In this document: piece by piece, positions 49,218 through 64,000 of the stretch
Layout of the letters: the number at the start of each line of letters is the position of its first letter
Position numbering within the stretch: the stretch's first letter is position 1
Assembly: GCA_045614965.1 (NCBI GenBank)
Contig: JAZLDY010000029.1
Span: forward strand, 14,814-78,813
DNA: 64,000 nucleotides
Direction: 5' to 3'
From: Tidjanibacter sp.
Lineage (GTDB): Bacteria > Bacteroidota > Bacteroidia > Bacteroidales > Rikenellaceae
Translations under genes and position numbers: made by a program
The notes under the pieces: model-generated
Databases searched by the model: none
Told to the model about the DNA's origin: nothing
What the model saw: the letters and a program-made list of their open reading frames with translations, nothing else

Positions 49218-50480
49218 CTATGCTCCCACAATCAGGTATGCTGCCACCGAGCAGAGCGTCAGCACCAAGCCCACCAACGATTCGTAGGGGATGAGCCTCA
49301 GTCGCTCCTTGATACCCATCTCCACCGAGCCACCCGTGGCGTGGAAGAACGATCCGTGGGGTAGGTGGTCGAGCACCGTAGCACCGGCGTTAATCATCGC
49401 AGCACCCCACACGGCACCCACACCCGAGGCGAGAATGGCACTGCCAAACGAGGCCGAAGCCACCGTTGCACCTGCTGTGGTGGAGGCTGTGGCGGCCGAC
49501 ATCAGTGCGCCCGACAGGGGGGCAAGCAACACACGTCCACCCTCGCCACTACCCATCAGCGAGATGAGCATATCGGTAAGTGCCGAAGCCTTGATGATGC
49601 CCGCAATGGCTCCCGTGCCAACCAACAGCACAGCCACCACCGACATCTTCTCCAAGCCATACCTCACACTTTCGCTCGCACCGTTCCACGTCCTTGTGGT
49701 CAGAATGCCCACGATTCCGCCCACGGGGAGCGCAATCAGAGGGTCAACCACAACGCCCACAAGGGGCCTCAGCGAGAGGAGCACAATGGCCACCAAAGGG
49801 CCGGCAATGCTTGCCCAAAACGAGGGTAATTTTTTGCCGTCATCTCCACACTGTTCCCTAACAGACTCTTTCGTATAGAGGTCTTTGTTGGGCATCAGGG
49901 GGATGATGAGGTAGATTGTTACCAGCAGGCCCACAATGGCAGGAATCACTCCTGCGCCCATCACCGACGAAAGTGGGGCGTCCATATTCTCGGCAGCAAT
50001 GATGGTGTTGGGATTGGGGGAGATGATGTTGCCACACTTGCCACCACCCACCATTGCAAGCAGAATTTTCAGTCGGGAAGCACCCACCTTTTGGCCAATC
50101 ATTATGGCCACGGGGGCTACGGTGATGACGGCAACGTCGATGAACACGCCCACGGCAGTCAGCAACATCACCGACAGTGCAAGAGCCAAGTAGATATGTT
50201 TTTGGCCGAGTTTGCTGACAATGGTGTGTGAGATACTCTCCGCTGCACCACTCTTAATCAGCACGCCCGAAAGCACACCTGCGGCCAAAATTCTCACAAT
50301 GGCGGGGGTGATGTCCTTCACACCACTCACCATTGTTGTTGCTGTGGCTTCGAGTCCCAGCCCTCCGAGAAGGCCGCCCACCAATGCGCCCAACAGCAGG
50401 CTATACACGGGCGATACTTTGCGAATAATAAGCACAATGGCAACCCCAAGGCCCACCAATGCGCCAATGGCACTCATCAT
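49218..50480 (-). CDS. GntP-family permease (putative glycerate transporter)
   Basis: RILAAGVLSG, VGVFIDVAVITVAP, GNIISPNPNT, HLPHGSFFH; directly after glycerate kinase. Confidence 0.85.
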   Translation of the reverse strand: MMSAIGALVGLGVAIVLIIRKVSPVYSLLLGALVGGLLGGLGLEATATTMVSGVKDITPAIVRILAAGVLSGVLIKSGAAESISHTIVSKLGQKHIYLALALSVMLLTAVGVFIDVAVITVAPVAIMIGQKVGASRLKILLAMVGGGKCGNIISPNPNTIIAAENMDAPLSSVMGAGVIPAIVGLLVTIYLIIPLMPNKDLYTKESVREQCGDDGKKLPSFWASIAGPLVAIVLLSLRPLVGVVVDPLIALPVGGIVGILTTRTWNGASESVRYGLEKMSVVAVLLVGTGAIAGIIKASALTDMLISLMGSGEGGRVLLAPLSGALMSAATASTTAGATVASASFGSAILASGVGAVWGAAMINAGATVLDHLPHGSFFHATGGSVEMGIKERLRLIPYESLVGLVLTLCSVAAYLIVGA

Positions 50481-50487
50481 AGTTGTT

Positions 50488-51627
50488 CTATTGTTTTGTG
50501 GTAAATAGTTTAACAATCTGTGTGGCCGTGCGTGTGAGGTTCTCCCTTGCCACCTCGGGGCGCATAGCCTCTTCCAATGATATGGGGCCCGACACTATGG
50601 GAAGGATAGCCGCAAAGCCACTCTCGGAGAGCTCCTTGCACCACGCCACGCCACCACCTATGGCCACCACTGGGATACCCTGCAAAGAGGCCCTCTCCAA
50701 CACTCCGCTGGGTGCTTTGCCCATAACGGTCTGGCGGTCCACACGGCCCTCGCCCGTGATGACAAGGTCGCTCCCTTCAATCACTTTGTCGAATTGGAGC
50801 GCATCCATAACCATACCGATACCCCTTTGGAGCCTTGCTCCGAGTAGGGCCACAAAGCCGGCACCAAGTCCGCCCGCCGCACCTGCCCCCTCCATTGGGG
50901 CTACATCGAGTCCGTTGTGTTGTCTGACAATGTGGGCAAAGTTGCGCAGTCCCTCGTCGAGCAGTTCGACCATCTGTGGTGTTGCACCCTTCTGGGGAGC
51001 ATAGACATAGGCCGCACCATTGGGCCCACAGAGTGGGTTGGTAACATCGCAAGCCACTGTGAACTCACACTCGGCCAACTCTTCCATTACGCCACTCGGG
51101 TCAATGGACCTGATTTTTGAAAGGTTGCCACCACAAGGCTCCACTACCTCTCCATCCTTGTCCACAAAGCGATAACCCAAGGCGTGGAGCATACCCACAC
51201 CTGCATCGTTGGTTGCACTTCCGCCAATGCCCACCAAAAACCTACGGCACCCCCTGCGGATAGCATCGGCAATGATTTCGCCCGTGCCAAGTGTGGAGGT
51301 CAGCATAGGGTTGCGCTCTTCGGGGGAGAGTAGCGGTAGGCCGCTTGCGGAGGCCATCTCCACCACAGCCAAACGCTTGTCAGCAACCACACCATAGCGT
51401 GCCACGGTTGGTGTGCCAAGTGGGCCCGACACGGCAATCTCCACAATCTCACCACCCAGACTATCCACAATGGCCTCCACGGTGCCCTCGCCACCATCGG
51501 CAATGCTCACCTTGCACACCTCGCAGTGGGGACACACGCTCCTCACGCCTGCCTCCACCGCCTCGGCCACCTCACGAGAGGATAGCGAGCCCTTGAACGA
51601 ATCTACCGCTATGGTTACCTTTTTCAT
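50488..51627 (-). CDS. garK: Glycerate kinase (GarK/GlxK family)
   Basis: DSFKGSL, ADGGEGT, GIGGSATND, GAGAAGGLG, TGEGRVD. Confidence 0.95.
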   Translation of the reverse strand: MKKVTIAVDSFKGSLSSREVAEAVEAGVRSVCPHCEVCKVSIADGGEGTVEAIVDSLGGEIVEIAVSGPLGTPTVARYGVVADKRLAVVEMASASGLPLLSPEERNPMLTSTLGTGEIIADAIRRGCRRFLVGIGGSATNDAGVGMLHALGYRFVDKDGEVVEPCGGNLSKIRSIDPSGVMEELAECEFTVACDVTNPLCGPNGAAYVYAPQKGATPQMVELLDEGLRNFAHIVRQHNGLDVAPMEGAGAAGGLGAGFVALLGARLQRGIGMVMDALQFDKVIEGSDLVITGEGRVDRQTVMGKAPSGVLERASLQGIPVVAIGGGVAWCKELSESGFAAILPIVSGPISLEEAMRPEVARENLTRTATQIVKLFTTKQ

Positions 51628-51639
51628 ATTAAAATAACG

Positions 51640-51850
51640 TCTAATAAAATTGAAAATTGAAAATTGAAAATGGAAAATTAAGGTGCGCCAAAGGCGCAGT
51701 TTTCTATTTTCATTTACCTTTCTTCACGGGTATCTTTTTTAATACCCGTGCCATCCGATAACTCCTCCCCTAAGTTAGGGGAGGTGGTCGAAGACCGGAG
51801 GGGTATGTTAGCTAACAGTTAATAGCAAATAGCTGATTGCTAATTCCGAA
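51640..51850. repeat. Intergenic mosaic (heptamers, GCGC linker, 22-bp palindrome, REP-like hairpin, heptamers)
   Basis: Directly visible. Confidence 0.88.
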
Positions 51851-51859
51851 AGCTCTCTT

Positions 51860-54130
51860 CTAACTCTCAATAATCTTCTTTGCATCGGGGGCCACCACAA
51901 AGGGGAGGGCTTCGAGGGTGGGCCTATACTTGATGTGAAGTTCCCTCACCACCTCAATCTCGTCGGCCGAAGGCTCGGTGGGGTAGCACTCCTTGCCGAA
52001 GGTCCACTCCCATTCCCACACTTTGCTCTCCTCCTCAAAGGCCTTTTGGTCGAAGGGTTTGCCCTCGGTCATCGCACTTCTCACGGCCGCAAAGAAACGC
52101 TCCCAGCGGGGGATGTAGAAGCCACCCACCATACCCGACCATTGGCGGCAGGCGTAGTCCCTGATGCGGCAATCTTTGTTACCCCAAGTGGTAAGCAAAT
52201 TTCGTGCATTTTGCTCATACACTGCCTTCTCGCTTTGGGTGTGTCCCATCGCTTTGGCATCCTCCAACCACCTTCCGAGCAAGAACTCCTTGCGTGAGGA
52301 TAGCAGACGCTCGAAGTCGCAAAGGTAGGATAAATAGTTGGCCACTGCAACATCCAAGGCCTCCACACTGCCACTCTCGTAGGCCTTTGCGCAGGCTTGT
52401 TGCAACACGGTGGCGTGGTTGGCCATCACCTGACGGGTGATATCTACAAGGTCGTAGCGGTAGCCCTCGCTGTCGGCAAAGCGGTCGGCACACTCCACCA
52501 ACAAGTCCCACGCCTCGGCGAGTTCCATCTGGTCGTAGTGGAGTTTGACGTTGGTTGTTCCGCCGGGGTTGAGTTTGAAGGAGGGACGGCCGGTGATGAT
52601 GGATTCGGGGCCTCCGTTGGTAACATCGTTGTTATAGACACTCTCGGTGATGATGCTCCACGCCTTTTCGGCACGCTCATCACGCTCTCCATACCTCTCT
52701 TCGAGGTAGTCGGTGGTGAATGCCTCAATATCAATGGGCTCACTCCTCCACACATTCTCCAACATCATCGCAAACATCAGGGGGTTGTGTTCGATGCCCT
52801 CGGGTGTGAGTCCAATGCCACAGAACTCTCCCGAACGTGGGGAGGCGAGTGCGGCTGCGGGCCCTGCGGCCACACGGGCGGAGTTGCCCGAAAGGGTGAT
52901 GTTTTGGCCGAAGTTGTGGAGCATACACCATATCCAAGGCTTACCGTAATATGCCTCGGTGCGCTGCCATACGGGGAAACGCTCGCTCCACAGGTCGAGG
53001 ATAATCATACCGTCGTTGGGCACAGCACCCAGCAGGGCTTTGATTTCGGGCTCGCCCCAGAAGTCGTCGGAGTGGTGGAACAACCAACCCTGCATTACCC
53101 ACACAGCCTCGCTGTCGGCGGCTCTCATCGACTCGAAGACCTTGCGACTCATACCGGCAAGGTAGGCCGAGTCGGTGCTTGGTGGGTCGTTTTCGTTGAA
53201 TGTGTCGGCCGAGTAGAGGTGGTTGGTGCCATAGAGTGCGGCCTGCTCACGGATGAACATCTCGCCAATGGTGTCGAACATCTCCTCCTCGGGGTCCATA
53301 ACGGCCACTTCGGGGAAGTTCACCCACGAGGTTTTGCGCACCTTCACATCGGGGAATTTATGCTCAAAGGCGGGCGGAACGTGGCCCGTGAAGGCGGGTA
53401 GCACGGGGGTCATACCGAGTGCTCGCTCGCTGCGAAGGATGAATTTTTGTAGCCTTTCGTGCTGACGGAAGAACCTCTGTGGCAGCGGACCACCCCAACC
53501 GTCGAGGTTGCCCATCCAAAACCAGTTGAAATAGGCCGGGCCGCTGAAAAAACTTTCGAGTTCTTTGTCCGTAAAGCCCAACTTCTTATAGACCCTCTGC
53601 CACACGGAGTTTTGGCCCGTAACGGCCAAGGGCATATTGATACCGTTGAGAGCCATAAAGTCTATCTCCCACTGCCAACGCTCCTTGTCCCACCAACTCA
53701 TCGTGTAGTTGAAGGTGCAGTAGTTGAAGCAGTAGCGATACTTGTAGGGGGTTGTTTTGACCACCCTCTCGGTGGGTAGGGGTAACTCTTCGGGGAGTTC
53801 CACATTGGAGCCACACCAACTGATGTGGCAACCACACCACTCTTGGAGGTAGTGGTTCAGTGCGCTTGCCACGCCCACACCGTCGCCACCTTCGAGGACA
53901 ACCCTACCATCCTCGGCCCAGAGCGCAAAGTAGTCGTGTCCGTTGAGCTGCTTCTCGGTGATGACCACCTTGAAATCGCTCTGTCGTCCGCCCGTAACCC
54001 TCCCAACGAGGGCCTCGGCAGCCTTGGTTTGTTCGTCGAGCGAAAAGATGGTTTGGGTGGCATCGGGGCTGCAACTGCTCCCCACGATAAGGGCCAGAAT
54101 GGTGGCAATGATTATGGCGTATCTCTTCAT
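51860..54130 (-). CDS. GH89 alpha-N-acetylglucosaminidase (lipoprotein)
   Basis: NYCTFNYTMSWW, IDFMALNGIN, MGNLDGWGGPL, DTFNE, LHNFG, TPEGIEHN. Confidence 0.96.
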   Translation of the reverse strand: MKRYAIIIATILALIVGSSCSPDATQTIFSLDEQTKAAEALVGRVTGGRQSDFKVVITEKQLNGHDYFALWAEDGRVVLEGGDGVGVASALNHYLQEWCGCHISWCGSNVELPEELPLPTERVVKTTPYKYRYCFNYCTFNYTMSWWDKERWQWEIDFMALNGINMPLAVTGQNSVWQRVYKKLGFTDKELESFFSGPAYFNWFWMGNLDGWGGPLPQRFFRQHERLQKFILRSERALGMTPVLPAFTGHVPPAFEHKFPDVKVRKTSWVNFPEVAVMDPEEEMFDTIGEMFIREQAALYGTNHLYSADTFNENDPPSTDSAYLAGMSRKVFESMRAADSEAVWVMQGWLFHHSDDFWGEPEIKALLGAVPNDGMIILDLWSERFPVWQRTEAYYGKPWIWCMLHNFGQNITLSGNSARVAAGPAAALASPRSGEFCGIGLTPEGIEHNPLMFAMMLENVWRSEPIDIEAFTTDYLEERYGERDERAEKAWSIITESVYNNDVTNGGPESIITGRPSFKLNPGGTTNVKLHYDQMELAEAWDLLVECADRFADSEGYRYDLVDITRQVMANHATVLQQACAKAYESGSVEALDVAVANYLSYLCDFERLLSSRKEFLLGRWLEDAKAMGHTQSEKAVYEQNARNLLTTWGNKDCRIRDYACRQWSGMVGGFYIPRWERFFAAVRSAMTEGKPFDQKAFEEESKVWEWEWTFGKECYPTEPSADEIEVVRELHIKYRPTLEALPFVVAPDAKKIIES

Positions 54131-54141
54131 ATTTCAGTGTG

Positions 54142-56301
54142 TTATTTGTAGCGATTAACCAGCGTGCGAGCCAACTCCACGGGGTCGCCCTCGGGGGTGG
54201 CAAAACGAGTGATGGGGGTGTTTATCCACTCCTCTTCCCACCTGTCGGTGGCCTCTTGACCCTCGGAGAAGAATATTTCCAAGCGGGGGATGTAGTATGC
54301 ACCCACCATATCGCTCCACAGCCTTGCGGCATAGTCCTCCTGCCAGCCGCCCCAAGTGGCGATGAGCCTCTTGGCGTTGGCCTCGGCACCATTTTGGGCC
54401 TCCACATCGGGGGATGACTTGCGAGCCAATGTAACCCAATTTTCGAGTCTGTGGTTGGGGTGGTGGGCCAAGAGGGCATCCACACCTCGGAGTATCTCAA
54501 TGGTGGCTTTGAGTTCTTTTTGAGCAGCCGCTTTGCGCCCCTTTTGGTGGAGCGAGAGGGCTTTTTCGTAGTGGCGGTCGGCAACCTCCGAGAGCCACAT
54601 TGCGCTCATCTCCACCACGTCGTTCACATAGAGGGGCGAGGCTCCACACTCTCCCTCGGCGGCCAATAAGTGCTCCACGCCCTCGCCAAAGAGGTCGTTG
54701 ATGTCGTGGGCACTACGGCGACGCTTGTCGTGGGTTACGGTCTGCCAAGTGAAACGGGGGTAGGAGTAGAGCGACGAATAGACACTGCCACGGAAGGCCT
54801 CCCAAGCGGCCTTGACCTCCTCGGTGTAGGCTCCATAGCGGGCTGTGCAGAACTGTGCAAGCCACTCGTCGAGGTTGATGGCCTCGGTGGTCCAACCCAT
54901 ATCGGCCAAGAGTTCATAGACAACCTCGTTGTTTTCGAGGCCTTCGGGTGCCGAGCCAAAGCCCACCAAGTTGCCCTTGCGGGGCGAGGCGAGTGCCTCG
55001 GCCGAAGAGGTGGCATACATTTCGAGTTCGCCCGTGGGCAACACCTTGCCACCGAAGTTGGGCACATAACTGAATATCCACTGCTTGCCGTAGAAACCAT
55101 CCTGCACTTTCCACGTCTGCTCGGTCTTCCACACCCACTTGGGGTAGTCGCAACCGAGGTCGATGATTATCATCCTGTCGTCGGGCACACGGCTCAGCAG
55201 GGCCTGCATACTCTCCTTGTCCCAAAAGTCGTGCTGATAGCCGAAGGTCCAACCCTGCGTTACCCACACGGCATCGGGGTCGCCAGCGGTGATGGAGTTG
55301 TAGATGGCCTCTCCGTAGTCGGCCAACAGGGCGTGCTTACCCTCGGTGTCGCCCTCCGCTACGGGCAGGCGCATCTCGTTGAAGCTGTCGGAGAGGTAGT
55401 ATTTTGCATCGCCAAACTCCTTTTCCCACTCCTCCACGAAGAGTTTGCCAATCTTGCTAAACCAAGGCGACGAGGGGGCCAATACCACAGCGTTGAACGA
55501 CTTGTCGAAGCCACCCCAAAGGAGTTGGTTGTATGTGATGTCGGGATTTTTTGCAATGAATGCAGGGGGTACGAAACCTGCGAAAGCGGGTGCTACGGGG
55601 GCCATACCGAGTTCTCTCATACGGTCGAGTATCTTGTGTTGGAGGGCAATCTGGCTCTCGTGCCACTCGTCAGTGAGGGGACCGTCGAAGGAGTTGAGGT
55701 TGCCCATACGGTGCCAAGGCAGGTGTGCCGCACCGGTAAAGAATGCGTTGGCCTCCTCGGGCGAGAGGCCGAGTTTTACCCACACACGCTTGGCAATGGC
55801 CTCGCTGGCCACACTCGCCAAGGGGAAGTTCACGCCGTGCAGAGCCATCCAGTCCAACTCCTGCTCCCAACGCTCCCAATCCCAATAGGGGGCGGTGTAG
55901 CCAAAGGTGCACACGTTCAGGAAGTAGCGCAAGGAGTAGGGCGACGAGCCACTCTCGGCATAGTCGGGCCACTGGGTGGGTAGGTTGAGGTGCTTGCCAC
56001 TCCACACCACTTGTGCGTTGCAGGCACGGTGGAGATAGTGGTTGAAGGCATAGCACAGAGCCGTAGGCGAGGAGCCCTCGATGGTGAGGTGTCCGCCCGT
56101 GGCCGAGATGTTGTAGGTATCCAGCCCCTCTGCGTTGGGGGCGGTAAGGTTGAGTGTGAGGTTTTGGGGCACCACTCCGAGTGTGCGCTCAATCACACCT
56201 TGTGCCGCAGCGACCTGCTTGGTGCGCTCCTTGTGGGCACTACATCCTGCCATTGTGGCACACACTAAAATAATGAGTAGAAATCGTTGCAGCAGTTTCA
56301 T
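54142..56301 (-). CDS. GH89 alpha-N-acetylglucosaminidase, second paralog (lipoprotein)
   Basis: NVCTFGYT, DWMALHGVN, MGNLNSFDGPL, DSFNE, VPNFGG, APEGLENN. Confidence 0.96.
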   Translation of the reverse strand: MKLLQRFLLIILVCATMAGCSAHKERTKQVAAAQGVIERTLGVVPQNLTLNLTAPNAEGLDTYNISATGGHLTIEGSSPTALCYAFNHYLHRACNAQVVWSGKHLNLPTQWPDYAESGSSPYSLRYFLNVCTFGYTAPYWDWERWEQELDWMALHGVNFPLASVASEAIAKRVWVKLGLSPEEANAFFTGAAHLPWHRMGNLNSFDGPLTDEWHESQIALQHKILDRMRELGMAPVAPAFAGFVPPAFIAKNPDITYNQLLWGGFDKSFNAVVLAPSSPWFSKIGKLFVEEWEKEFGDAKYYLSDSFNEMRLPVAEGDTEGKHALLADYGEAIYNSITAGDPDAVWVTQGWTFGYQHDFWDKESMQALLSRVPDDRMIIIDLGCDYPKWVWKTEQTWKVQDGFYGKQWIFSYVPNFGGKVLPTGELEMYATSSAEALASPRKGNLVGFGSAPEGLENNEVVYELLADMGWTTEAINLDEWLAQFCTARYGAYTEEVKAAWEAFRGSVYSSLYSYPRFTWQTVTHDKRRRSAHDINDLFGEGVEHLLAAEGECGASPLYVNDVVEMSAMWLSEVADRHYEKALSLHQKGRKAAAQKELKATIEILRGVDALLAHHPNHRLENWVTLARKSSPDVEAQNGAEANAKRLIATWGGWQEDYAARLWSDMVGAYYIPRLEIFFSEGQEATDRWEEEWINTPITRFATPEGDPVELARTLVNRYK

Positions 56302-56413
56302 CGTTTTTTGGGATTTTGTGGGTTAAAAAGTGTGGTTTTTTGAGAAAAAAGAAAACTTTGCCGATGCGGAGTGTTTGTCTCCCCGCACCGGCAAAGTAGT
56401 TGGTTATGAGTGC

Positions 56414-57694
56414 TTATTTAGCAACAATCATCTGGCTCTTGATGTTCAAGTAGCAGGGTTTGAGATAGAGTTGCTCCGACAATGTTGCATCAAGATATTT
56501 CTTGCCGGTAGCCTCATCGGTTACAAATGCAGCCGAATCATCAGGCAACTGAACAATCTGGATAATACCATAGCTGAAAGGCACACCCTCTTTTGCAGTG
56601 CGGGGGCTGCGAATAATGAGGTAGTCGCCTGCACGGAAGTTCTCGGTAAGAGGCTTAGCCATTGAAGTGTGGCCAGCAGAGCCCCAACGACGATACATAT
56701 TCTTGTTGCTCAACGAGGTAGGCTCGTTCTCAACTCCGAGGGTGCTGTTGTCGAGTACCCTCTGGATCTCACCCAACTGATAGTGTGCCCTCATCTGGTC
56801 TGCCAATGTCTTAATCTCCTCGGGAATAGCCATAAACAGACTGTCAACAAATTTATACTCATCCTCATCGTAATTTGTACCATCCCACGAACCAACAATA
56901 CGGCTCATACCAACTTCGTCTGCGATGGCTTTGTCGAGGAAGTGCTCGCCATACTTTGCAACATCGCACTGACGACCAATAGTACCGGCATTAAGCCTCT
57001 CGATAGTACAGAACATATAACCCCTTTCACTTCCGAATACAACGTTGTTGGAGGTGTTCATAAGAGCGTTGCAGAAGCAGAGCGAACCCTCTTTACCATT
57101 AGTGGGAAGAAGCTCGTTGAGCGAAACGATGTGTTTCAAGGTGCCATTTACGTTCACACCATGCATCGAAATGAACGAAGGAGTGTCGCTACCTGCACCG
57201 GTGTTCTCATCGGGATAGAGCTCGGGGTTGTTCTCGTGGTTGTCAATCTTCTTGTCGGCCATAATGGTTGCAGTGGGCTCGCACCAAGCACCATAGTTCC
57301 ACTCGCCCTCAACTGCGCCAAGTGCGTAGTAGAAAGCAGCGGCTTTGTTACCGGCAACAACTTTAACCTCAACGTGGGTAGCCTCTTTGGTGTCGGCAAA
57401 CCAGAGCTGGTCAACCTCTGTACCCTCCTGTTCGAGAGTCTGTGCGCTACCTTTGGCAACATAGCTCTCGCCACTCTTAGCAACACCGGTCAGAACAACC
57501 TCGGTGAGTGCTACACTCGAAGTACCTTTGATTGCGATGGGCGAACCATAGGCTACACCCTCGGCGATAGCAGCCTCAACACCCTCGGCGAGTGTGAGAG
57601 TTGCTTCGAGTTTGTCCTGGCCACCTTCGGACTCCTTGTCGCAAGCCACCAGTGCTACTGCCAGCATTGCAATTGCAAATAAAGTTTTTTTCAT
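56414..57694 (-). CDS. Surface lipoprotein of unknown function (SGBP-like)
   Basis: Lipobox LVAC; located inside PUL-2; no catalytic motif recognised. Confidence 0.65.
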   Translation of the reverse strand: MKKTLFAIAMLAVALVACDKESEGGQDKLEATLTLAEGVEAAIAEGVAYGSPIAIKGTSSVALTEVVLTGVAKSGESYVAKGSAQTLEQEGTEVDQLWFADTKEATHVEVKVVAGNKAAAFYYALGAVEGEWNYGAWCEPTATIMADKKIDNHENNPELYPDENTGAGSDTPSFISMHGVNVNGTLKHIVSLNELLPTNGKEGSLCFCNALMNTSNNVVFGSERGYMFCTIERLNAGTIGRQCDVAKYGEHFLDKAIADEVGMSRIVGSWDGTNYDEDEYKFVDSLFMAIPEEIKTLADQMRAHYQLGEIQRVLDNSTLGVENEPTSLSNKNMYRRWGSAGHTSMAKPLTENFRAGDYLIIRSPRTAKEGVPFSYGIIQIVQLPDDSAAFVTDEATGKKYLDATLSEQLYLKPCYLNIKSQMIVAK

Positions 57695-57772
57695 AGCAAA
57701 TAATGTTTTAGAAAAAAGGTTAATAAATAAAGTTGTTAATAGGTTTGTTTTGTTTGGTTTATGTTGTTTGGT

Positions 57773-58540
57773 TTATTTGATGTCGATAACCGATAGGACG
57801 GGGAAGTGGTCCGAAAGGGTGCACCACTCAACCACCTCCGTCTTGCGCAACTCCACAGGGCGGGCACCACGATAGAAGATGTAGTCAATCTTTATCTTGG
57901 GCTCCTTGGTGCTGTATGTCTTCTCCTCGTTGGTCATATTTTTCCACCCTGCCTTCACGAGTGTCTGCATCTCCTTGGTGTGGGGCTCGGCATTCATATC
58001 GCCCACCAAAATCACGGGGTAGGGCCACCCTTCGAAGTAGCGGTTGATGAACTCCACCTGCTCCATTCGTGCCTCGCTCGACGACACCTCCAAGTGGGTA
58101 CACACAAAGGTCAGAAGGTCGCCACTTGGCAGTTCGGCTGTGGCAACCAATAGGGTGCGCTGTTCGGTCTTGGGCTTTTGGGGGAGCAACACACGCTCGC
58201 TCTTGATGATAGGGTAGCGGCTCAGGATACCCACGCCATAATATCCACCCTTGTAGTTGATGGCCTTACCATAGAGGCCAAACATACCGGCACGGTGGGC
58301 AATCTCGCTCACGAACTTCACACCGTGTTGGTGGGGTGCTCTCTCCCTCTTGGTGGCCCAATCACACTCCTGCAAGGCCACAAAGTCGGCCTCCTGCGAT
58401 GCCACAAAGTCGCCCAACTGCTCCACGGTGGCAAGTTCGCCAAAGCGCAGGTTGTAGCTCAAAATCTTCAAAGGCTCCTCGGCCCTCGCCAAAAGGCTCA
58501 CGGCAAGGACAGCCATTAGTGTCAATAGTGTTTTCTTCAT
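57773..58540 (-). CDS. Endonuclease/exonuclease/phosphatase (EEP) family protein, secreted
   Basis: SYNL, ALQECD, THL, GDMNA, IDYIF, SDHFPV. Confidence 0.93.
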   Translation of the reverse strand: MKKTLLTLMAVLAVSLLARAEEPLKILSYNLRFGELATVEQLGDFVASQEADFVALQECDWATKRERAPHQHGVKFVSEIAHRAGMFGLYGKAINYKGGYYGVGILSRYPIIKSERVLLPQKPKTEQRTLLVATAELPSGDLLTFVCTHLEVSSSEARMEQVEFINRYFEGWPYPVILVGDMNAEPHTKEMQTLVKAGWKNMTNEEKTYSTKEPKIKIDYIFYRGARPVELRKTEVVEWCTLSDHFPVLSVIDIK

Positions 58541-58549
58541 ATCCGTTGG

Positions 58550-59380
58550 TTAGAAAAATTTCTCCATTGTTACCTTCCAATAGGGAAGATTTATTGTTTT
58601 CAGCCTCTCAATCGAACGGCACACATACATCGCAGGGCAGAGCACCATTAGGTCATAGGCTGTGCCCTCGCTCCCTGCAAAGGCCACTCGGTAGCCCGAA
58701 AAGTTCTTTTTGAGCCACTCCTCCACGTCGGCCTTCTTGTCGGTGGCCACCCTTGCCAACAGCACACCGTCGCTCTGCAACTCCACCCCAAAGGCCTCCA
58801 CAGCCGCAGCCACCTGCTCGGTGGTGTCGAAGGTGGCGTTGAAGAGGGTGATGGTGGCAGGCTTGGAGAGTCCGATGGCTACGCTGATACCCGACAAGTG
58901 GAGGTCATCTGTGGCCACGCCCACGATGGACGAACTCTTGTAGCGGCTCACAACGCCCGTGCCTTTGGTGGAGTTCTCACCCGTAGCCTCCGTGGGGAGG
59001 AAATATGCGTTGGCCTTGTTGTCGTAGGCAACCTTCACAGCGGCCACACCCTTGCCCACCTCAAAGTCGCAACGGTCGAAGAGGTAGAATGTCGATTTGG
59101 GAGCCGTTTGGTTGCCCACAAATTGGCTCGCCACACCCACATCACGCTGGCCACTGAAAAATGGCTCATCCTCCAAGGTGGAGAAAAAATCTACCCTGAA
59201 AAGATTTGCCGTTACGGGCACCTCGGGTATCTCGGGGGCTACATATTCACCCCCATTGTTCGTTCCGCCACCTTGCGTTCCGCCATTGTCATCGGGCGTT
59301 GGGGTGCAACCGGCCAATGTTGCCACAAGGAGCAACACCGGCCACTGCACGGCGAGAAGTTGTTTGATTGTGCGTGTCAT
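58550..59380 (-). CDS. Lipoprotein of unknown function
   Basis: Lipobox LAGC and G/T/N-rich linker; no EEP catalytic motifs. Confidence 0.65.
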   Translation of the reverse strand: MTRTIKQLLAVQWPVLLLVATLAGCTPTPDDNGGTQGGGTNNGGEYVAPEIPEVPVTANLFRVDFFSTLEDEPFFSGQRDVGVASQFVGNQTAPKSTFYLFDRCDFEVGKGVAAVKVAYDNKANAYFLPTEATGENSTKGTGVVSRYKSSSIVGVATDDLHLSGISVAIGLSKPATITLFNATFDTTEQVAAAVEAFGVELQSDGVLLARVATDKKADVEEWLKKNFSGYRVAFAGSEGTAYDLMVLCPAMYVCRSIERLKTINLPYWKVTMEKFF

Positions 59381-59395
59381 ATCTTCTCGTAGGTC

Positions 59396-60199
59396 TTATT
59401 CGTTAGGAAATGTGTAGGTTACGTCGGCTACAATGAAGCGGTGGTCCGACAATTCGGGGCAGTCGAGAATGGTGTAACTCTCCACCGTCCAACCCGTCTT
59501 GGGCGAGGCCATAACATAGTCGAGCCTTTGGGCCGCATAGGTAATCTCCGGACGGCTCGAAGGGTAGGTGTTGCCATAGCCCTTGCCGAGGTCTTTCCAG
59601 CGGTAGGCAGAGTAGGTGATGGGGTCGCTACTCTCGTTGGCGTTGAAGTCGCCCACGAGGAGTGTGGGGATTGTGTCGCCCTCGGCAAAGATGTTTTTGT
59701 TCACATCGGCGAGGTGCTGGATGGTCATCTGCGCACTCTCCAATGCGAGGTGGGTGGTGGCAACCCTCACACACTCGCCCTCGGGAAGTTGAACATAAAT
59801 CCACCCCGAAGCCCTCGGCTCCCTTGCGCCCGAGAGGTTGGTTACAATCTTGGTCATCTTGTAGAATGGCCACCTACTCAACAGGGCCGTACCAAAGCCA
59901 CCGCCCTGGTAGTTCATCGAGTGGCAGAAATAGGGCATCATACCCGTAGCCATTGCCACCTCGTTGAGCCAATCTCGGCCACCATTGCGGGTGGTCATCT
60001 GGTCCACCTCCTGCAAGCACACCACATCGGGCTCATATTGGGCAATCAGTTCGGCATAGGGGGCCGACAGAAAACCGCAATACCTGCCGCCCTCCTTGAT
60101 GTTCATCGACATCACACGGAGCGACACGCTCCTCTGGGCACTCACGCTGAGCACCGCCCCAAGAAGCACAATGGCAAGTGTCAATATTCTCTTGTTCAT
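59396..60199 (-). CDS. EEP family protein, secreted
   Basis: SMNI, CLQEVD, TTHL, GDFNA, RLDYV, SDHR. Confidence 0.93.
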   Translation of the reverse strand: MNKRILTLAIVLLGAVLSVSAQRSVSLRVMSMNIKEGGRYCGFLSAPYAELIAQYEPDVVCLQEVDQMTTRNGGRDWLNEVAMATGMMPYFCHSMNYQGGGFGTALLSRWPFYKMTKIVTNLSGAREPRASGWIYVQLPEGECVRVATTHLALESAQMTIQHLADVNKNIFAEGDTIPTLLVGDFNANESSDPITYSAYRWKDLGKGYGNTYPSSRPEITYAAQRLDYVMASPKTGWTVESYTILDCPELSDHRFIVADVTYTFPNE

Positions 60200-60259
60200 A
60201 CTCATTTCCGTTTGTTGGTTACGGATGAAATGTTGTTTTTTGGTTACTCTCACTCCTCA

Positions 60260-61948
60260 CTACCAACCGGGGTTGTTGGGGGCAAGGTTGGGGTTGAGTT
60301 GCATCTGCTTGAAAGGAATGGAGAGCAGATAGTGCTTGCTGGGGTTGAATGTACGGCCCGTTTCGAGCAACAAATACTGTTCGCCATCGATGGTTACCCA
60401 TTGCAGCTTGCTCAAATCAACCTTCAATCTCGATTGGTCAAGCCACCTGCGGTTTACACCCACGAGGTCCTCGCCCAGAGTCTTGCCCTCACGCCAACGG
60501 ATGATGTCGAAGTAGCGGTGGCCCTCAAAGAAGAGTTCCACGTTGCGCTCCCTGCGAATCTCGGTGCAGATGTCGCTACCGGCGGGCAGTTTGCCCAACT
60601 CCATAGGCACCATCCCAACCCTCTTGCGCAGCAGGTTGATGGACTTGTCAAGGTCGTCTTGGGTGAGTTTACCATCCAACTGTTTGGCTTCGGCATAGTT
60701 GAGCAGCACCTCGGCATAGCGCATCAGGACGATGTCGTTGTCGTCGTGGTTTACATACTTAACCGTCGAAGGCTCAACATACTTACGCATATAGTAGCCC
60801 GAATAGGTCATTGCACCCGTCTTGTCGTTAATCAACAAGGGGTAGTGATAGGTGCTCTTGTCGTTGCTGGTGGTATCACCGTCGGGGCCTCCGGTCCAAG
60901 GGGTGCCGGGAGCCAGAATGGTCTGACACATACGGGGGTCCCTATTCTTGAACACATCCTCGTAGGAGTTGCATTGTTTGGGGTCCCAAATCTGGCCATC
61001 GGCTGTAAGGTAGAGTTCGATAGCCTTCTTGGTGGGCACAAAACGGGCAAAGTCGCCAGGCACCCAATTCTCTCTCGAAAGGTTGTGGGAAGTGCGTGCA
61101 TCCTCGCCGAGGTTGTAGTTGTACACATAGGCCAAGATGGTCTCTTTGTTGTTGGCGTTACGGGAGGCACGTCCGGTGTAGTTGAAGAGGTTGTAGTAGT
61201 CCTCGTCGGGTTTGCCGGTGGTGTAGAGTTCGTGGTAGGGGTTCTCCATTGCCCTCTCGCAAGCATCCACAGCATCGGCATAGCGACCATTGTAGAGATA
61301 GATGCGGGAAAGAAGCAGAAGGGCTGCGGCCTGAGATACTCGGCCAAACTCCTCGCTTGCAGCGGCGATATACTCGGGCAGAGCCTTGTAGTGGTCTTCG
61401 AGGTCTTTGGTTATCTTCTCAACAACCACCTCTCGCTTGTCCCTGCCACGATAGACATCGGGCGACTCCACGTTGAGTACCTCGGTGATGTAGGGAACAT
61501 CGCCAAAGTAGTTGGTCAGAATCCAATAGTTGTAGGCACGGTAGAAATAGGCCTCGGCTGCATACCTATCCTTAATCTCCTGCTTCACATTTGTTGCCCT
61601 TTGGTAGTTGGCCAAGAAATAGTTGACACGTCCGATGCTATTGTAGGCACCGGCCCAAATAGAGTTGAGGTTACTATTGTTGGTTGCGTAGTTGCCGCCA
61701 CCGATGGTACGGAAGGCGGTGGTTACTGCCCAAGGGGCGTAGTCGGCCATAATCTCAGTCATATTGATCCAATACTTACCCTCCAACGAAGAGGTGAAGG
61801 TGTTGGCCACACTCTGCAAGTGGGACTCATCCTGCCAGAAGTTTTCGTCGGTGATTTGGTCAAATTGCGGACGCTCCAAAAAGTCGTCGTTGCAACCTGT
61901 CAGAAGTGCCACAGAGGCAACCAGCAAACCATATATAATCTTTTTCAT
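60260..61948 (-). CDS. susD: SusD/RagB family lipoprotein
   Basis: Lipobox LTGC; AEAYFYRA, MRYAEVLLNYAEA, FFEGHRYFDIIRW. Confidence 0.95.
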   Translation of the reverse strand: MKKIIYGLLVASVALLTGCNDDFLERPQFDQITDENFWQDESHLQSVANTFTSSLEGKYWINMTEIMADYAPWAVTTAFRTIGGGNYATNNSNLNSIWAGAYNSIGRVNYFLANYQRATNVKQEIKDRYAAEAYFYRAYNYWILTNYFGDVPYITEVLNVESPDVYRGRDKREVVVEKITKDLEDHYKALPEYIAAASEEFGRVSQAAALLLLSRIYLYNGRYADAVDACERAMENPYHELYTTGKPDEDYYNLFNYTGRASRNANNKETILAYVYNYNLGEDARTSHNLSRENWVPGDFARFVPTKKAIELYLTADGQIWDPKQCNSYEDVFKNRDPRMCQTILAPGTPWTGGPDGDTTSNDKSTYHYPLLINDKTGAMTYSGYYMRKYVEPSTVKYVNHDDNDIVLMRYAEVLLNYAEAKQLDGKLTQDDLDKSINLLRKRVGMVPMELGKLPAGSDICTEIRRERNVELFFEGHRYFDIIRWREGKTLGEDLVGVNRRWLDQSRLKVDLSKLQWVTIDGEQYLLLETGRTFNPSKHYLLSIPFKQMQLNPNLAPNNPGW

Positions 61949-62002
61949 AGCGTTCTGTCTTGTTTCGTTTGTTCTACACTTTGTTGTCCATTACTTCTCC
62001 TC

Positions 62003-64000
62003 CTATCGGAAGGTTACACTCAGACCGAGCACACAGGTCTTAACCTGTGGGTAGTAGCCACCACTCGAAACGGGAGTCTCGGGGTCGTAGGCATAGAAGA
62101 AGTCGCTCACGGTGAGGAGGTTGTCGGCCGAAATGTAGATGCGGCACTTTTCAACCTTTGCCTTCTTGGTCAGAGCCGAAGGCAGTGTGTAGCCCAACTG
62201 GATGTTCTTCAAACGGAGGTAGGAAGCATCCTCCAACCAGAAGGTCGAGAAGGTCTCCTGATTGAACTTGGTGTTGTAGGTCAAGCGGGGGTAGGAGGCG
62301 TTGGCATTGGGGTTCTCCTTGTAGTGGTAACGGTCGAGGTGTACCTTCTGTGGGTAGGCCGCCATATCCTGCAAGGCGTGGCGTGCGGAGCCTTTCAGGA
62401 AGCCATCACACTTGCCAACACCCTGGATGTTGAAACTGAAATCGAAGCCCTTCCACGCCACATCGCCACGGAAACTGTATGTGTAGCGGGGGATGTTGCT
62501 ACCGATAATCTTCTTGTCATACTCGGGCGAGATACGTCCGTCGGGTTTGCCATTGGGGCCACTGATGTCCCTATATTTGATATCACCGGGCTGGTAGTCG
62601 TTACCCAGCACCACGGGGATATTGGGCAGGGCGGCCTTGCCGGTGGCAGCGTCGTAGATTTTGAAATCCTCGGGAGTCATCAGGCCGATAGCCTCGTAGC
62701 CATAGAAGGCATCAATGGGGTAGTCCACAATCCTCACTTGGTCGCCACTCAAATCGGGGGCGTTGCCTGCAAGGTCAGTAATCTTGTTCTTCACATCCGA
62801 GAGGTTGAAGCCAAAACCATAGCGCACACCGCCAACCTTGTCCCTCCAAGCCATATCAATCTCCCAACCGGTGTTGTTCATCTTGCCGGCATTCTCCTCC
62901 GAGGGGGTTGCGCCAATCTGCGAGGGGTAGTTGAGTTTCAAGAGGATACCATCGGTGTCTTTCGTAAACCAGTCAAACGTAACCGAGAGGCGGTTGTGGA
63001 GCATTTGGAGGTCAAAACCGAAGTCCAACATTGTGATTGTCTCCCAAGTCAACAGAGGGTTGGAGAGCACCGACTGGGTGTAGCCTGTGGTTGCGTTGGC
63101 ACCGATGAGCGAAATCTCGTCGGTGTAGGCGGTGAGGTTGGACATATAGGGGGTGTTGGACGAGCCAACGTATTGGTTGCCGAGTTTACCCCACGAAGCC
63201 CTCAGTTTGAGGTTGTCGAGCCACTCGTCGGTGGAGGCCATAAACTGCTCTTCGCTTATCCTCCAACCACCCGAGAACGAGGGGAACAAGCCCGCACGGT
63301 TATCACGGTGGAAGCGAGAGGAGAGGTCGTAGCGCACGTTCATCTCCAAGAGGTAACGCTCGTCGTAGTTGTAGCTCACACGTCCAAAGCCCGAACGGAT
63401 GGCCCACTGCTTGGCCGACGAGTCGTTGCTCATACTTGTCGAGCTACCCAGATTGATTGTGGGGTTATACTCCGTTACAAGGTTGTTGCGTGAGGCCTCA
63501 AATTGGCGATACACATACCACTCTTGCGACATACCAACCACGCCGCTGATGTTGTGTTTGCCAATGTTGAAGTCGAAGTTGCTCTGCAAAATGAAGGTCT
63601 GTTGTTGGGCCCTCATATCAATATTCTTTATGGAGTTGGGCGAGTTGACCTCCACAGTTGCGCCCGTGTCGGGGTTCACAAAGCGGATGGTCTTTTTGAG
63701 GATATCACGCAGGGAGTTGGTGGAGGTGAGGTTGTAGGTTGCGCTCACGTTCCAATGCTTGTTGATATCATAGCGCAGCACCTCCAAGATTGACACCTCC
63801 TCTGCCGAGGTGTTGCTGTGGCCACCATCGGTGAGGGTTGCCACGGGGTTGGTGTTGCCACCACCATAGGCCCAAGTGCCATCCGTGTAGCGAATGGGGC
63901 TGTTGGGCATAATACGCATAGCGGTATAGATTGCACCACCACCGCTTACCAGCGAGTTGATGGGGGCTGTGATGTTGCGAGAGGTGTAGCCCACGTTGGA
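62003..64000 (-). CDS. susC: SusC TonB-dependent transporter, C-terminal two-thirds (5' end beyond window)
   Basis: RYDLSSRF, LKLRASWGKLGN, NPLLTWE, YLRLKNIQLGY, C-terminal SVTFR. Confidence 0.96.
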   Translation of the reverse strand, partial: SNVGYTSRNITAPINSLVSGGGAIYTAMRIMPNSPIRYTDGTWAYGGGNTNPVATLTDGGHSNTSAEEVSILEVLRYDINKHWNVSATYNLTSTNSLRDILKKTIRFVNPDTGATVEVNSPNSIKNIDMRAQQQTFILQSNFDFNIGKHNISGVVGMSQEWYVYRQFEASRNNLVTEYNPTINLGSSTSMSNDSSAKQWAIRSGFGRVSYNYDERYLLEMNVRYDLSSRFHRDNRAGLFPSFSGGWRISEEQFMASTDEWLDNLKLRASWGKLGNQYVGSSNTPYMSNLTAYTDEISLIGANATTGYTQSVLSNPLLTWETITMLDFGFDLQMLHNRLSVTFDWFTKDTDGILLKLNYPSQIGATPSEENAGKMNNTGWEIDMAWRDKVGGVRYGFGFNLSDVKNKITDLAGNAPDLSGDQVRIVDYPIDAFYGYEAIGLMTPEDFKIYDAATGKAALPNIPVVLGNDYQPGDIKYRDISGPNGKPDGRISPEYDKKIIGSNIPRYTYSFRGDVAWKGFDFSFNIQGVGKCDGFLKGSARHALQDMAAYPQKVHLDRYHYKENPNANASYPRLTYNTKFNQETFSTFWLEDASYLRLKNIQLGYTLPSALTKKAKVEKCRIYISADNLLTVSDFFYAYDPETPVSSGGYYPQVKTCVLGLSVTFR

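What the first reader, a model, noticed from the sequence alone, without database searches (positions are those of the whole stretch)
51860..64000. PUL-2 pairs two GH89 enzymes with two secreted EEP phosphoesterases: candidate teichoic-acid or phosphoglycan utilisation locus
Seen: susC-susD-EEP-lipoprotein-EEP-lipoprotein-GH89-GH89, co-oriented, with no sulfatase or lyase in the visible part. Established: GH89 removes alpha-GlcNAc (heparan sulfate, gastric mucin), EEP enzymes are metal-dependent phospho(di)esterases, and alpha-GlcNAc with phosphodiesters occurs in teichoic acids and some capsules. Inference: the locus forages on Gram-positive wall polymers or other GlcNAc-phosphate glycans, a niche little described for PULs.
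Basis: inference. Interest (0 to 1): 0.68.

Follow-up and report, generated by a model that had tools for sequence, protein, structure and literature searches.

The report
Predicted lipoteichoic-acid (GlcNAc-phosphate-glycerate) utilisation locus
A gut Tidjanibacter carries a nutrient-uptake gene cluster whose enzymes match, part for part, the unusual cell-wall polymer (lipoteichoic acid) of Clostridioides difficile and its relatives, so it may be a system for eating a teichoic acid, but no enzyme has been tested.

Summary
On the minus strand lie susC, susD, EEP, a lipoprotein, EEP, a lipoprotein, GH89 and GH89.

The contig beyond the window shows an ECF sigma/anti-sigma pair and then housekeeping genes. 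There is no lyase or sulfatase upstream.

Three findings are new:
- A glycerate kinase and a GntP-family permease (49218-51627) belong to the locus. They follow the second GH89 in 14 of 15 related loci and overlap it in three. They also stay with the EEP/GH89 module in two rearranged variants from other Bacteroidales families.
- The first "lipoprotein" has an EEP fold but has lost the catalytic residues. It is probably a binding protein.
- Both EEPs and both GH89s keep their catalytic residues.

The parts are two alpha-GlcNAc-ases, phosphoesterases and glycerate uptake with a kinase. They match the type V lipoteichoic acid (PS-III) repeat: P-6-alphaGlcNAc-(1-3)-alphaGlcNAc-(1-2)-glycerate. One variant locus adds an HGSNAT-like N-acetyltransferase, which fits the GlcN residues of PS-III.

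Points against: sister loci carry S1_46 (3S-GlcNAc) sulfatases, the glycerate pair also occurs alone, and nothing has been assayed.

Confidence is about 0.55. This would be a new variant of a known kind (a PUL).

The parts
62003..64000 (-). SusC-like TonB-dependent transporter. It is cut by the window end; the full gene is 1115 aa and ends at window-equivalent 65350. Outside the window, upstream on the same strand, lie a FecR anti-sigma factor (about 65655-66653) and an ECF sigma factor (about 66726-67331).
   Evidence: STN, CarboxypepD_reg and Plug domains. FecR/FecR_C and Sigma70_r2/r4 are found in L001.
60260..61948 (-). SusD-like lipoprotein
   Evidence: SusD_RagB at E 1e-47 and SusD-like_3. 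One search shows the lipobox LTGC.
59396..60205 (-). EEP1: a metal-dependent phosphoesterase of the endonuclease/exonuclease/phosphatase fold, predicted to be periplasmic
   Evidence: PF03372 at E 4e-20; all catalytic residues are invariant (N35, E66, H152, D186, N188, D229, D254, H255). Searches show an SPI-type signal.
58550..59380 (-). Lipoprotein with an EEP fold that has lost the catalytic His/Asn/Asp set. It is a pseudo-phosphoesterase and a candidate surface binding protein for the phospho-glycan.
   Evidence: model pLDDT 82; Foldseek probability 1.0 to EEP proteins 3TEB, Tdp2 and beta-toxin; no invariant His. Searches give a weak profile alignment to EEP1. One search finds no Pfam hit.
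57773..58540 (-). EEP2: a second active EEP phosphoesterase, a paralogue of EEP1 at 24% identity, predicted to be periplasmic
   Evidence: PF03372 at E 3e-18 and PGAP2IP-type at 9e-12. One search shows invariant catalytic residues; hhalign E 7e-42 to EEP1.
56414..57694 (-). Lipoprotein with an N-terminal Ig-like domain and a C-terminal domain of about 290 aa that has no solved relative. It is a candidate surface glycan-binding protein, or a new enzyme.
   Evidence: pLDDT 77; only Ig-domain matches; more than 1000 homologues, all unnamed; an acidic residue cluster follows the lipid Cys (CDKESE).
54142..56301 (-). GH89a: a divergent alpha-N-acetylglucosaminidase lipoprotein, 30-32% identical to the other three GH89s of the genome
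   Evidence: both catalytic Glu are kept (FNEM and APEG, equal to hNAGLU E316 and E446).
51860..54130 (-). GH89b: a NAGLU-like alpha-N-acetylglucosaminidase lipoprotein
   Evidence: E 9e-178 to human NAGLU 4XWH; both catalytic Glu are kept.
51628..51859 (-). Intergenic spacer with three hairpins and a TTTTCAA heptamer array. It is specific to this lineage; relatives have 0-40 bp or overlapping genes here.
50488..51627 (-). Glycerate kinase (GlxK/GarK family), the only one in the genome
   Evidence: PF02595 at E 3e-148. TIGR00045. Searches show a single copy.
49218..50480 (-). GntP-family permease, a candidate glycerate importer. It starts 7 bp after the glxK stop.
   Evidence: Searches show it always paired with glxK.

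Best explanation
This is an ECF-sigma/anti-sigma-controlled polysaccharide utilisation locus. Its substrate is probably a type V lipoteichoic acid: the PS-III polymer of Clostridioides difficile and related clostridia, or a very close alpha-GlcNAc/GlcN-phosphate-glycerate polymer.

Proposed mechanism (all steps inferred):
1. Released LTA chains are captured at the surface by SusD, by the pseudo-EEP lipoprotein and by the Ig-domain lipoprotein.
2. SusC imports them. Its STN domain signals to the anti-sigma factor.
3. In the periplasm, EEP1 and EEP2 hydrolyse the 6-P-6 phosphodiester and the remaining 6-phosphomonoester.
4. One GH89 removes the alpha-1,3-GlcNAc. The other, perhaps the divergent GH89a, cleaves GlcNAc-alpha-1,2-glycerate.
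5. The GntP-family permease takes up glycerate, and the glycerate kinase phosphorylates it into glycolysis.
6. GlcNAc enters the NagA/NagB route.

Shown: gene content, intact catalytic residues, signal types, folds and conserved linkage. Inferred: substrate identity, the order of steps and the assignment of each enzyme to a bond.
For: (1) Composition match. [quoted passage not shown] The locus encodes two GH89s, two active EEP phosphoesterases, and a glycerate kinase with a permease. It encodes no other degradative enzyme.

(2) The glycerate genes are part of the unit.
- They follow GH89b in 14 of 15 related loci that have downstream sequence.
- The flanks differ completely among these loci.
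- The gap is 4 bp in L006. In L053-L055, glxK overlaps GH89b by 8 bp and gntP overlaps glxK.

(3) The link survives rearrangement in other families.
- In L056, glxK-gntP sits between GH89a and a further GH89.
- In L058, it directly follows the EEP/lipoprotein module.

(4) L056 adds an HGSNAT-like N-acetyltransferase next to a GH89. This fits the 15-30% free-amine alpha-GlcN in PS-III.

(5) There is precedent for PUL-borne EEP-fold sugar phosphatases acting on a phosphorylated microbial wall glycan: BT3783 and BT2630 (PMC4978465).

(6) The genome has a separate GH88/GH89 locus for glycosaminoglycan-like substrates. It has NagB-like genes.

Against: - No enzyme, binding protein or growth phenotype has been tested.
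- The glxK-gntP pair also occurs alone, with housekeeping flanks, in other Rikenellaceae. Glycerate kinase is present in 86 of 301 family genomes against 11 with the PUL marker. Part of the adjacency could therefore be inherited rather than selected.
- In this genome a 232-bp spacer with a weak terminator-like hairpin separates GH89b from glxK.
- Sister loci L005 and L006 carry S1_46 sulfatases, orthologues of the BT1918 3S-GlcNAc sulfatase with an intact S-x-P-x-R motif. PS-III does not explain these, and they point towards sulfated host glycans.
- No obvious surface endo-acting enzyme or lipid-anchor-removing enzyme is present.
- All the proteins are acidic overall. That gives no electrostatic hint of binding a polyanion.
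- ECF-type PULs with GH89 are known for mucin O-glycans.
Confidence: 0.55

Rival explanations
1. This is a host-glycan cap-harvesting PUL. The two GH89s strip terminal alpha-GlcNAc from gastric-type mucin O-glycans or from heparan sulfate non-reducing ends, as in the B. thetaiotaomicron GH89 BT4359. The EEPs and the glycerate genes would be accessory or merely adjacent.
For: - The regulator is of the ECF sigma/anti-sigma type.
- BT4359 removes all alpha-1,4-GlcNAc caps of gastric mucin O-glycans (PMC13042051).
- GH89b is very NAGLU-like.
- Sister loci contain S1_46 3S-GlcNAc sulfatases.
- One variant contains an HGSNAT-like gene. Together with the sulfatases, this recalls the lysosomal heparan exo-pathway.
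Against: - It gives no role to three conserved EEP-fold proteins.
- It gives no role to the translationally coupled glycerate kinase and permease.
- The locus has no uronidase, galactosidase or other mucin or heparan enzyme.
- This genome has no S1_46 sulfatase.
- This genome has a separate GH88/GH89 locus.
Confidence: 0.2
2. The substrate is a different, still undescribed alpha-GlcNAc/GlcN-phosphate-glycerate glycoconjugate from another gut organism, whether a Firmicute, an archaeon or a eukaryote. It may be sulfated in some variants. It would be degraded by the same logic.
For: The gene content demands only GlcNAc, phosphate and glycerate. The variants carrying sulfatases, a GH127-like gene and a beta-helix protein suggest a family of related polymers rather than one structure.
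Against: PS-III is the only described polymer with exactly these parts in a gut organism, as far as the papers read and my own knowledge go. No candidate structure can be named.
Confidence: 0.15
3. The substrate is a classical teichoic acid or capsule. That means poly(glycerol- or ribitol-phosphate) carrying alpha-GlcNAc, or a GlcNAc-1-phosphate polymer.
For: EEP phosphoesterases occur together with alpha-GlcNAc-ases.
Against: - There is no GDPD (GlpQ) or PhoD-type enzyme.
- There is no glycerol or ribitol uptake or kinase.
- The linked kinase is a glycerate kinase (PF02595, TIGR00045), not a glycerol kinase.
Confidence: 0.05
4. The EEPs are nucleases or lipid phosphodiesterases. On this reading the locus targets extracellular nucleic acid or inositol-phospho-glycolipids (GPI or plant GIPC with alpha-GlcN(Ac)).
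For: The EEP fold includes DNases and sphingomyelinases. EEP2 matches the PGAP2IP-type EEP model.
Against: - The EEPs are strictly linked to GH89s and glycerate genes.
- The locus has no inositol, mannose or glucuronate enzymes.
- It has no nucleoside uptake genes.
Confidence: 0.03

Closest known systems
B. thetaiotaomicron yeast alpha-mannan PULs with the EEP-fold phosphatases BT3783 and BT2630 (Cuskin et al. 2015, PMC4978465)
   Same: Both are SusC/SusD-based loci for a phosphorylated microbial cell-wall glycan. In both, Mg-dependent EEP-fold enzymes remove phosphate so that exo-glycosidases can proceed.
   Different: - The sugar differs: mannose there, alpha-GlcNAc here.
- There are three EEP-fold genes here, one of them a pseudoenzyme lipoprotein.
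- Control here is by an ECF sigma factor.
- Glycerate uptake and a glycerate kinase are built into the operon here.
- The EEPs here have no detectable sequence match to solved structures.
B. thetaiotaomicron GH89 enzymes BT4359, BT0438 and BT3590 (PMC13042051, PMC8225759). BT4359 lies in a small ECF-regulated SusCD locus; that gene context is from my own memory and was not checked here.
   Same: Both involve a GH89 alpha-N-acetylglucosaminidase in, or next to, an ECF sigma/anti-sigma SusCD locus.
   Different: - The B. thetaiotaomicron enzymes act on gastric mucin caps, pNP-alpha-GlcNAc or heparosan.
- They have no EEP, glycerate kinase or permease partners.
- There is one GH89 per locus there, against two here.
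Lysosomal heparan sulfate exo-pathway: NAGLU, HGSNAT and sulfatases
   Same: GH89b is a close NAGLU homologue (E 9e-178). Variant loci add an HGSNAT-like acetyltransferase or sulfatases with an SGSH_C domain.
   Different: - There is no glucuronidase or iduronidase.
- The sulfatases are S1_46 (3S-GlcNAc), not sulfamidase.
- Phosphoesterases and glycerate genes have no counterpart in heparan catabolism.
Teichoic-acid recycling by GlpQ (GDPD) and PhoD in Bacillus and Staphylococcus (own knowledge, not checked here)
   Same: Both involve hydrolysis of teichoic-acid phosphodiesters to recover nutrients.
   Different: - The enzyme folds differ.
- That system is a Gram-positive self-recycling response to phosphate limitation.
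- It has no outer-membrane import machinery.
- Its substrate is poly(glycerol phosphate).

Membership tests
Bacteroidota polysaccharide utilisation locus (PUL) | Adjacent susC/susD-like pair | tested here: met
   a TonB-dependent receptor with a Plug domain, followed by a SusD_RagB protein.
Bacteroidota polysaccharide utilisation locus (PUL) | Co-oriented glycan-degrading enzymes and a dedicated regulator | tested here: met
   two GH89s and two EEPs lie on the same strand. An ECF sigma/FecR pair lies upstream, and SusC has an STN domain.
Bacteroidota polysaccharide utilisation locus (PUL) | Induction by, and growth on, the cognate glycan | not testable with these tools
GH89 alpha-N-acetylglucosaminidase | NAGLU N-terminal, TIM-barrel and C-terminal domains | tested here: met
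   both proteins match all three Pfam models far above cut-off.
GH89 alpha-N-acetylglucosaminidase | The two catalytic glutamates (hNAGLU E316 and E446) | tested here: met
   FNEM/FNEN and APEG/TPEG align to the human residues in both proteins.
Endonuclease/exonuclease/phosphatase (EEP) superfamily, active members | The metal-binding and catalytic residues: Asn, Glu, His, Asp-x-Asn, Asp and Asp-His | tested here: met
   the residues are invariant in EEP1 and EEP2 across 10-11 orthologues.
Endonuclease/exonuclease/phosphatase (EEP) superfamily, active members | The same catalytic set in the 276-aa lipoprotein | tested here: not met
   The fold is EEP. However, no His is invariant, and the motif positions are replaced in the low-confidence profile alignment.
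Heparin/heparan sulfate PUL | Heparinase-type lyases (PL12, PL13, PL15, PL21), GH88 and GAG sulfatases in the locus | tested here: not met
   Searches find none in or around the locus. A GH88 lies in a different locus on contig C45.
Classical teichoic-acid hydrolases (GlpQ/GDPD, PhoD) | A GDPD or PhoD domain | tested here: not met
   no such domain occurs in any gene of the locus.
Type V LTA (PS-III) degradation system (no such family has been described) | One activity for each bond or part: alpha-1,3-GlcNAc, GlcNAc-alpha-1,2-glycerate, the 6-P-6 diester and glycerate catabolism | tested here: inconclusive
   Gene content matches one to one and the linkage is conserved. The activities themselves are untested.

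The most novel reading that the evidence does not exclude
This would be the first dedicated teichoic-acid utilisation system. It is a Bacteroidales PUL family that dismantles the C. difficile-type lipoteichoic acid bond for bond. It uses a catalytically dead phosphoesterase as its surface receptor and feeds the released glycerate straight into glycolysis. Gut commensals would then consume, and so clear, an immunogenic surface polymer of Peptostreptococcaceae. The family would also supply ready-made enzymes for analysing or degrading PS-III.
Probability: 0.5. Interest if true: 0.85.

Novelty: new variant of a known kind. Interest (0 to 1): 0.72.

Why it matters
PULs are known for dietary, host and fungal glycans and for some bacterial polysaccharides. 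In the papers I searched, none is assigned to a teichoic acid.

If this reading is right, it would have four consequences:
- It would open a new nutrient niche, the necromass or shed envelope of Gram-positive neighbours.
- It would give a natural context to divergent GH89 and EEP enzymes and to a pseudo-EEP binding protein.
- It would provide enzymes specific for PS-III, which is a C. difficile vaccine antigen.
- It would suggest a commensal route for removing an immunostimulatory polymer from the gut.

The hypothesis is directly testable, because synthetic PS-III repeats already exist (PMC13558421, PMC13614052).

Tried and rejected
- **PDB sequence searches.** Searches with both EEPs and both lipoproteins gave nothing useful.
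- **lip426 fold search.** Only the Ig domain matched. The C-terminal domain stays unassigned.
- **Global hhalign.** A global alignment of the pseudo-EEP to EEP1/EEP2 failed. Only a 26%-probability local alignment exists.
- **Is glycerate kinase confined to PUL-bearing genomes?** It is not: 86 of 301 genomes have the kinase against 11 with the PUL marker. The glxK tree mixes PUL-linked and stand-alone copies. The argument therefore rests on operon structure and on linkage surviving rearrangement, not on co-presence.
- **Bulk charge.** The pI values of the binding proteins are all acidic, which gives no support.
- **CpGH89 Trp685 specificity loop.** GH89b has a loop of similar length but without the Trp. 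This is inconclusive.
- **Substrates considered and set aside.**
  - Plant GIPC and GPI anchors: no inositol, uronate or mannose enzymes.
  - The heparan linkage region: no galactosidase or glucuronidase.
  - The GlcNAc-1-P-Man 'uncovering' substrate and yeast mannan: no mannosidases.
  - Deinococcus-type glyceroyl-alkylamine phosphoglycolipids: wrong habitat.

Full report
**Observation**

The flagged region encodes eight co-oriented genes on the minus strand:
- a SusC-like gene, cut by the window end;
- SusD (60260-61948);
- EEP1 (59396-60205);
- a 276-aa lipoprotein (58550-59380);
- EEP2 (57773-58540);
- a 426-aa lipoprotein (56414-57694);
- GH89a (54142-56301);
- GH89b (51860-54130).

The window is C29:14814-78813 of a 1.92-Mb assembly that is 99.8% complete. 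Close relatives of the locus lie in MAGs named Tidjanibacter sp., with 95-98% GH89 identity.

I read the 11 kb of contig beyond the window. SusC is 1115 aa and has an STN signalling domain. It is preceded by a FecR anti-sigma factor and an ECF sigma factor. Upstream of those lie a GHMP kinase, DUF2851 and SecA. For this genome that test is negative.

*1. Glycerate genes.* Directly downstream of GH89b lie a glycerate kinase (50488-51627; PF02595 at E 3e-148, TIGR00045) and, 7 bp further on, a GntP-family permease (49218-50480).

*2. A third EEP fold.* The 276-aa lipoprotein has no Pfam hit, but its model (pLDDT 82) is an EEP fold. Foldseek gives probability 1.0 to 3TEB, Tdp2, S. aureus beta-toxin and DNase I. 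Its orthologues have no invariant histidine. In the low-confidence profile alignment, the Asn, His, Asp-x-Asn and Asp-His positions are replaced. I read it as a pseudo-phosphoesterase used as a binding protein.

*3. Intact enzymes.* EEP1 and EEP2 are 24%-identical paralogues. Their catalytic sets are fully invariant and their signals are of the signal-peptidase-I type. The two lipoproteins and both GH89s have lipoboxes, and this pattern holds across orthologues. Both GH89s keep the two catalytic glutamates.

*4. The 426-aa lipoprotein.* It has an N-terminal Ig-like domain and a C-terminal domain with no solved relative.

**Conservation of the block**

The 426-aa lipoprotein has more than 1000 unnamed homologues in metagenomes. 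Among species representatives it is rare:
- 1 of 401 sampled Bacteroidales;
- 11 of 301 Rikenellaceae, in 3 genera.

I examined fifteen related loci that have downstream sequence. They share 35-70% protein identity with the window in the divergent clades. Fourteen of them keep the same order, from SusC to GH89b, then glxK and gntP. Their flanking genes are entirely different.

- In L006 the gap between GH89b and glxK is 4 bp.
- In L053-L055 glxK overlaps the end of GH89b by 8 bp, and gntP overlaps glxK. This indicates one operon.
- In this window a 232-bp spacer separates the two genes. It is full of hairpins, carries a heptamer array and has one weak terminator-like site. This is a lineage-specific insertion.

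**Rearranged variants in other families**

A profile search with EEP2 over 401 Bacteroidales genomes found two rearranged variants.

*L056* has this order: sigma, anti-sigma, SusC, SusD, EEP, EEP2-like, GH127-like, EEP, a beta-helix protein, GH89a-like (61% identity), glxK, gntP, an HGSNAT-like acetyltransferase, GH89.

*L058* has this order: sigma, anti-sigma, SusC, SusD, EEP1-like, a 276-aa protein, EEP2-like, an Ig-domain lipoprotein, glxK, gntP.

The glycerate genes thus stay with the EEP/GH89 module even when the order is shuffled.

**Limits of the linkage argument**

- Glycerate kinase is present in 86 of 301 family genomes.
- The glxK-gntP pair also occurs alone, with housekeeping flanks.
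- PUL-linked and stand-alone kinases interleave in the tree.

Co-presence alone therefore proves little. The weight lies on operon structure and on linkage persisting across divergence and rearrangement.

**Interpretation**

The locus contains two alpha-N-acetylglucosaminidases, phosphoesterases, and glycerate import with a kinase. It contains no other degradative enzyme.

The only polymer I know from a gut organism with exactly these parts is the type V lipoteichoic acid (PS-III) of C. difficile. [quoted passage not shown] The match is one to one:
- two alpha-GlcNAc linkages for two GH89s;
- a 6-P-6 diester, and the monoester it leaves, for two EEPs;
- glycerate for the permease and kinase.

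The HGSNAT-like gene of L056 fits the GlcN residues, which a GH89 should not cleave until they are acetylated.

There is precedent for EEP-fold sugar phosphatases in a PUL for a phosphorylated microbial wall glycan: BT3783 and BT2630 (PMC4978465).

The genome also has two further GH89 genes elsewhere:
- One sits beside an ECF PUL with GH88, which looks like the glycosaminoglycan locus.
- One sits with a LacI regulator, a CBM9-like protein and an APH-type kinase.

**Against this reading**

- Nothing has been assayed.
- Sister loci L005 and L006 carry S1_46 sulfatases. These are strong orthologues of the BT1918 3S-GlcNAc sulfatase (PDB 7OZ8; E 1e-163 to 1e-170) with an intact S-x-P-x-R motif. 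PS-III does not explain them, and they keep a host-glycan link alive. This genome has no S1_46 gene.
- No surface endo-enzyme or anchor-removing enzyme is evident.
- The bulk charge of the proteins is acidic.
- ECF-type loci with GH89 are known for mucin caps (PMC13042051).

**Earlier notes from this scan**

Two earlier AI notes, on homologous loci in other genomes, reached the same lipoteichoic-acid reading. I had written the idea down before seeing them. They are not independent evidence.

**Verdict**

- The best explanation is a type V LTA, or closely related GlcNAc-phosphate-glycerate, utilisation locus, at confidence about 0.55.
- The main rival is a host alpha-GlcNAc cap-harvesting locus, at about 0.2.
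- It is a new variant of a known kind (a PUL). It is directly testable with existing synthetic PS-III fragments.

Noticed in passing
window 51628-51859: The GH89b-glxK spacer holds three hairpins (CCTCCCC...GGGGAGG, CACGGGTAT...ATACCCGTG, TGCGCC...GGCGCA) and a TTTTCAA heptamer array. Relatives have 0-40 bp or overlapping genes at this point, so this is an inserted repeat mosaic.
   Followed up: partly
G000 contig C45:80413-98210: This is a second ECF-type PUL. A GH89 and a SASA-type esterase run divergently from sigma, anti-sigma, SusC, SusD, an unknown 651-aa lipoprotein, an fn3 + FGE-sulfatase-domain lipoprotein, GH88 and an unknown 705-aa lipoprotein. It is probably the glycosaminoglycan-like locus of this genome.
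   Followed up: partly
G000 contig C64:60227-65558: A fourth GH89 lies in a small operon with a CBM9-like protein and an APH-type kinase, next to a LacI-family regulator.
   Followed up: partly
L005:15723-17153 and L006:9873-11417: S1_46 sulfatases, orthologues of the BT1918 3S-GlcNAc sulfatase, are embedded in homologous EEP/GH89 loci. In L006 the sulfatase lies between the two GH89s. The natural substrate of S1_46 is poorly defined, so this recurrent context may be a clue to it.
   Followed up: partly
L056:1129-2247 and L056:6953-11639: The variant locus carries an HGSNAT_cat/DUF5009-like membrane acetyltransferase between gntP and a GH89. It also carries a GH127-like protein, a beta-helix protein and a third active-looking EEP.
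   Followed up: partly
L013:3363-8367: One Tidjanibacter lineage has tandem duplicates of SusD and of EEP1 inside the locus.
   Followed up: no
L053:2765-5884: In this relative the SusC is 1039 aa with no STN hit listed (precomputed Pfam annotation). No sigma/anti-sigma pair precedes it, so the regulator appears to have been lost.
   Followed up: no
L057:3302-18216: An EEP2-like enzyme (44% identity) sits in a different ECF PUL with GH97, a heparinase II/III-like lyase and GH38. This EEP clade therefore appears to be a general PUL accessory.
   Followed up: partly
window 59441-63493 (+), also 41954-44809 (+): There are very long open frames of 1350 and 951 aa, antisense to EEP1/SusD/SusC and to the AcrB-like gene. 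They are probably an effect of codon usage, not genes.
   Followed up: no
whole genome G000: This 1.92-Mb genome is 99.8% complete and carries four GH89 genes. Most congeners lack the PUL described here, so its distribution is patchy.
   Followed up: partly
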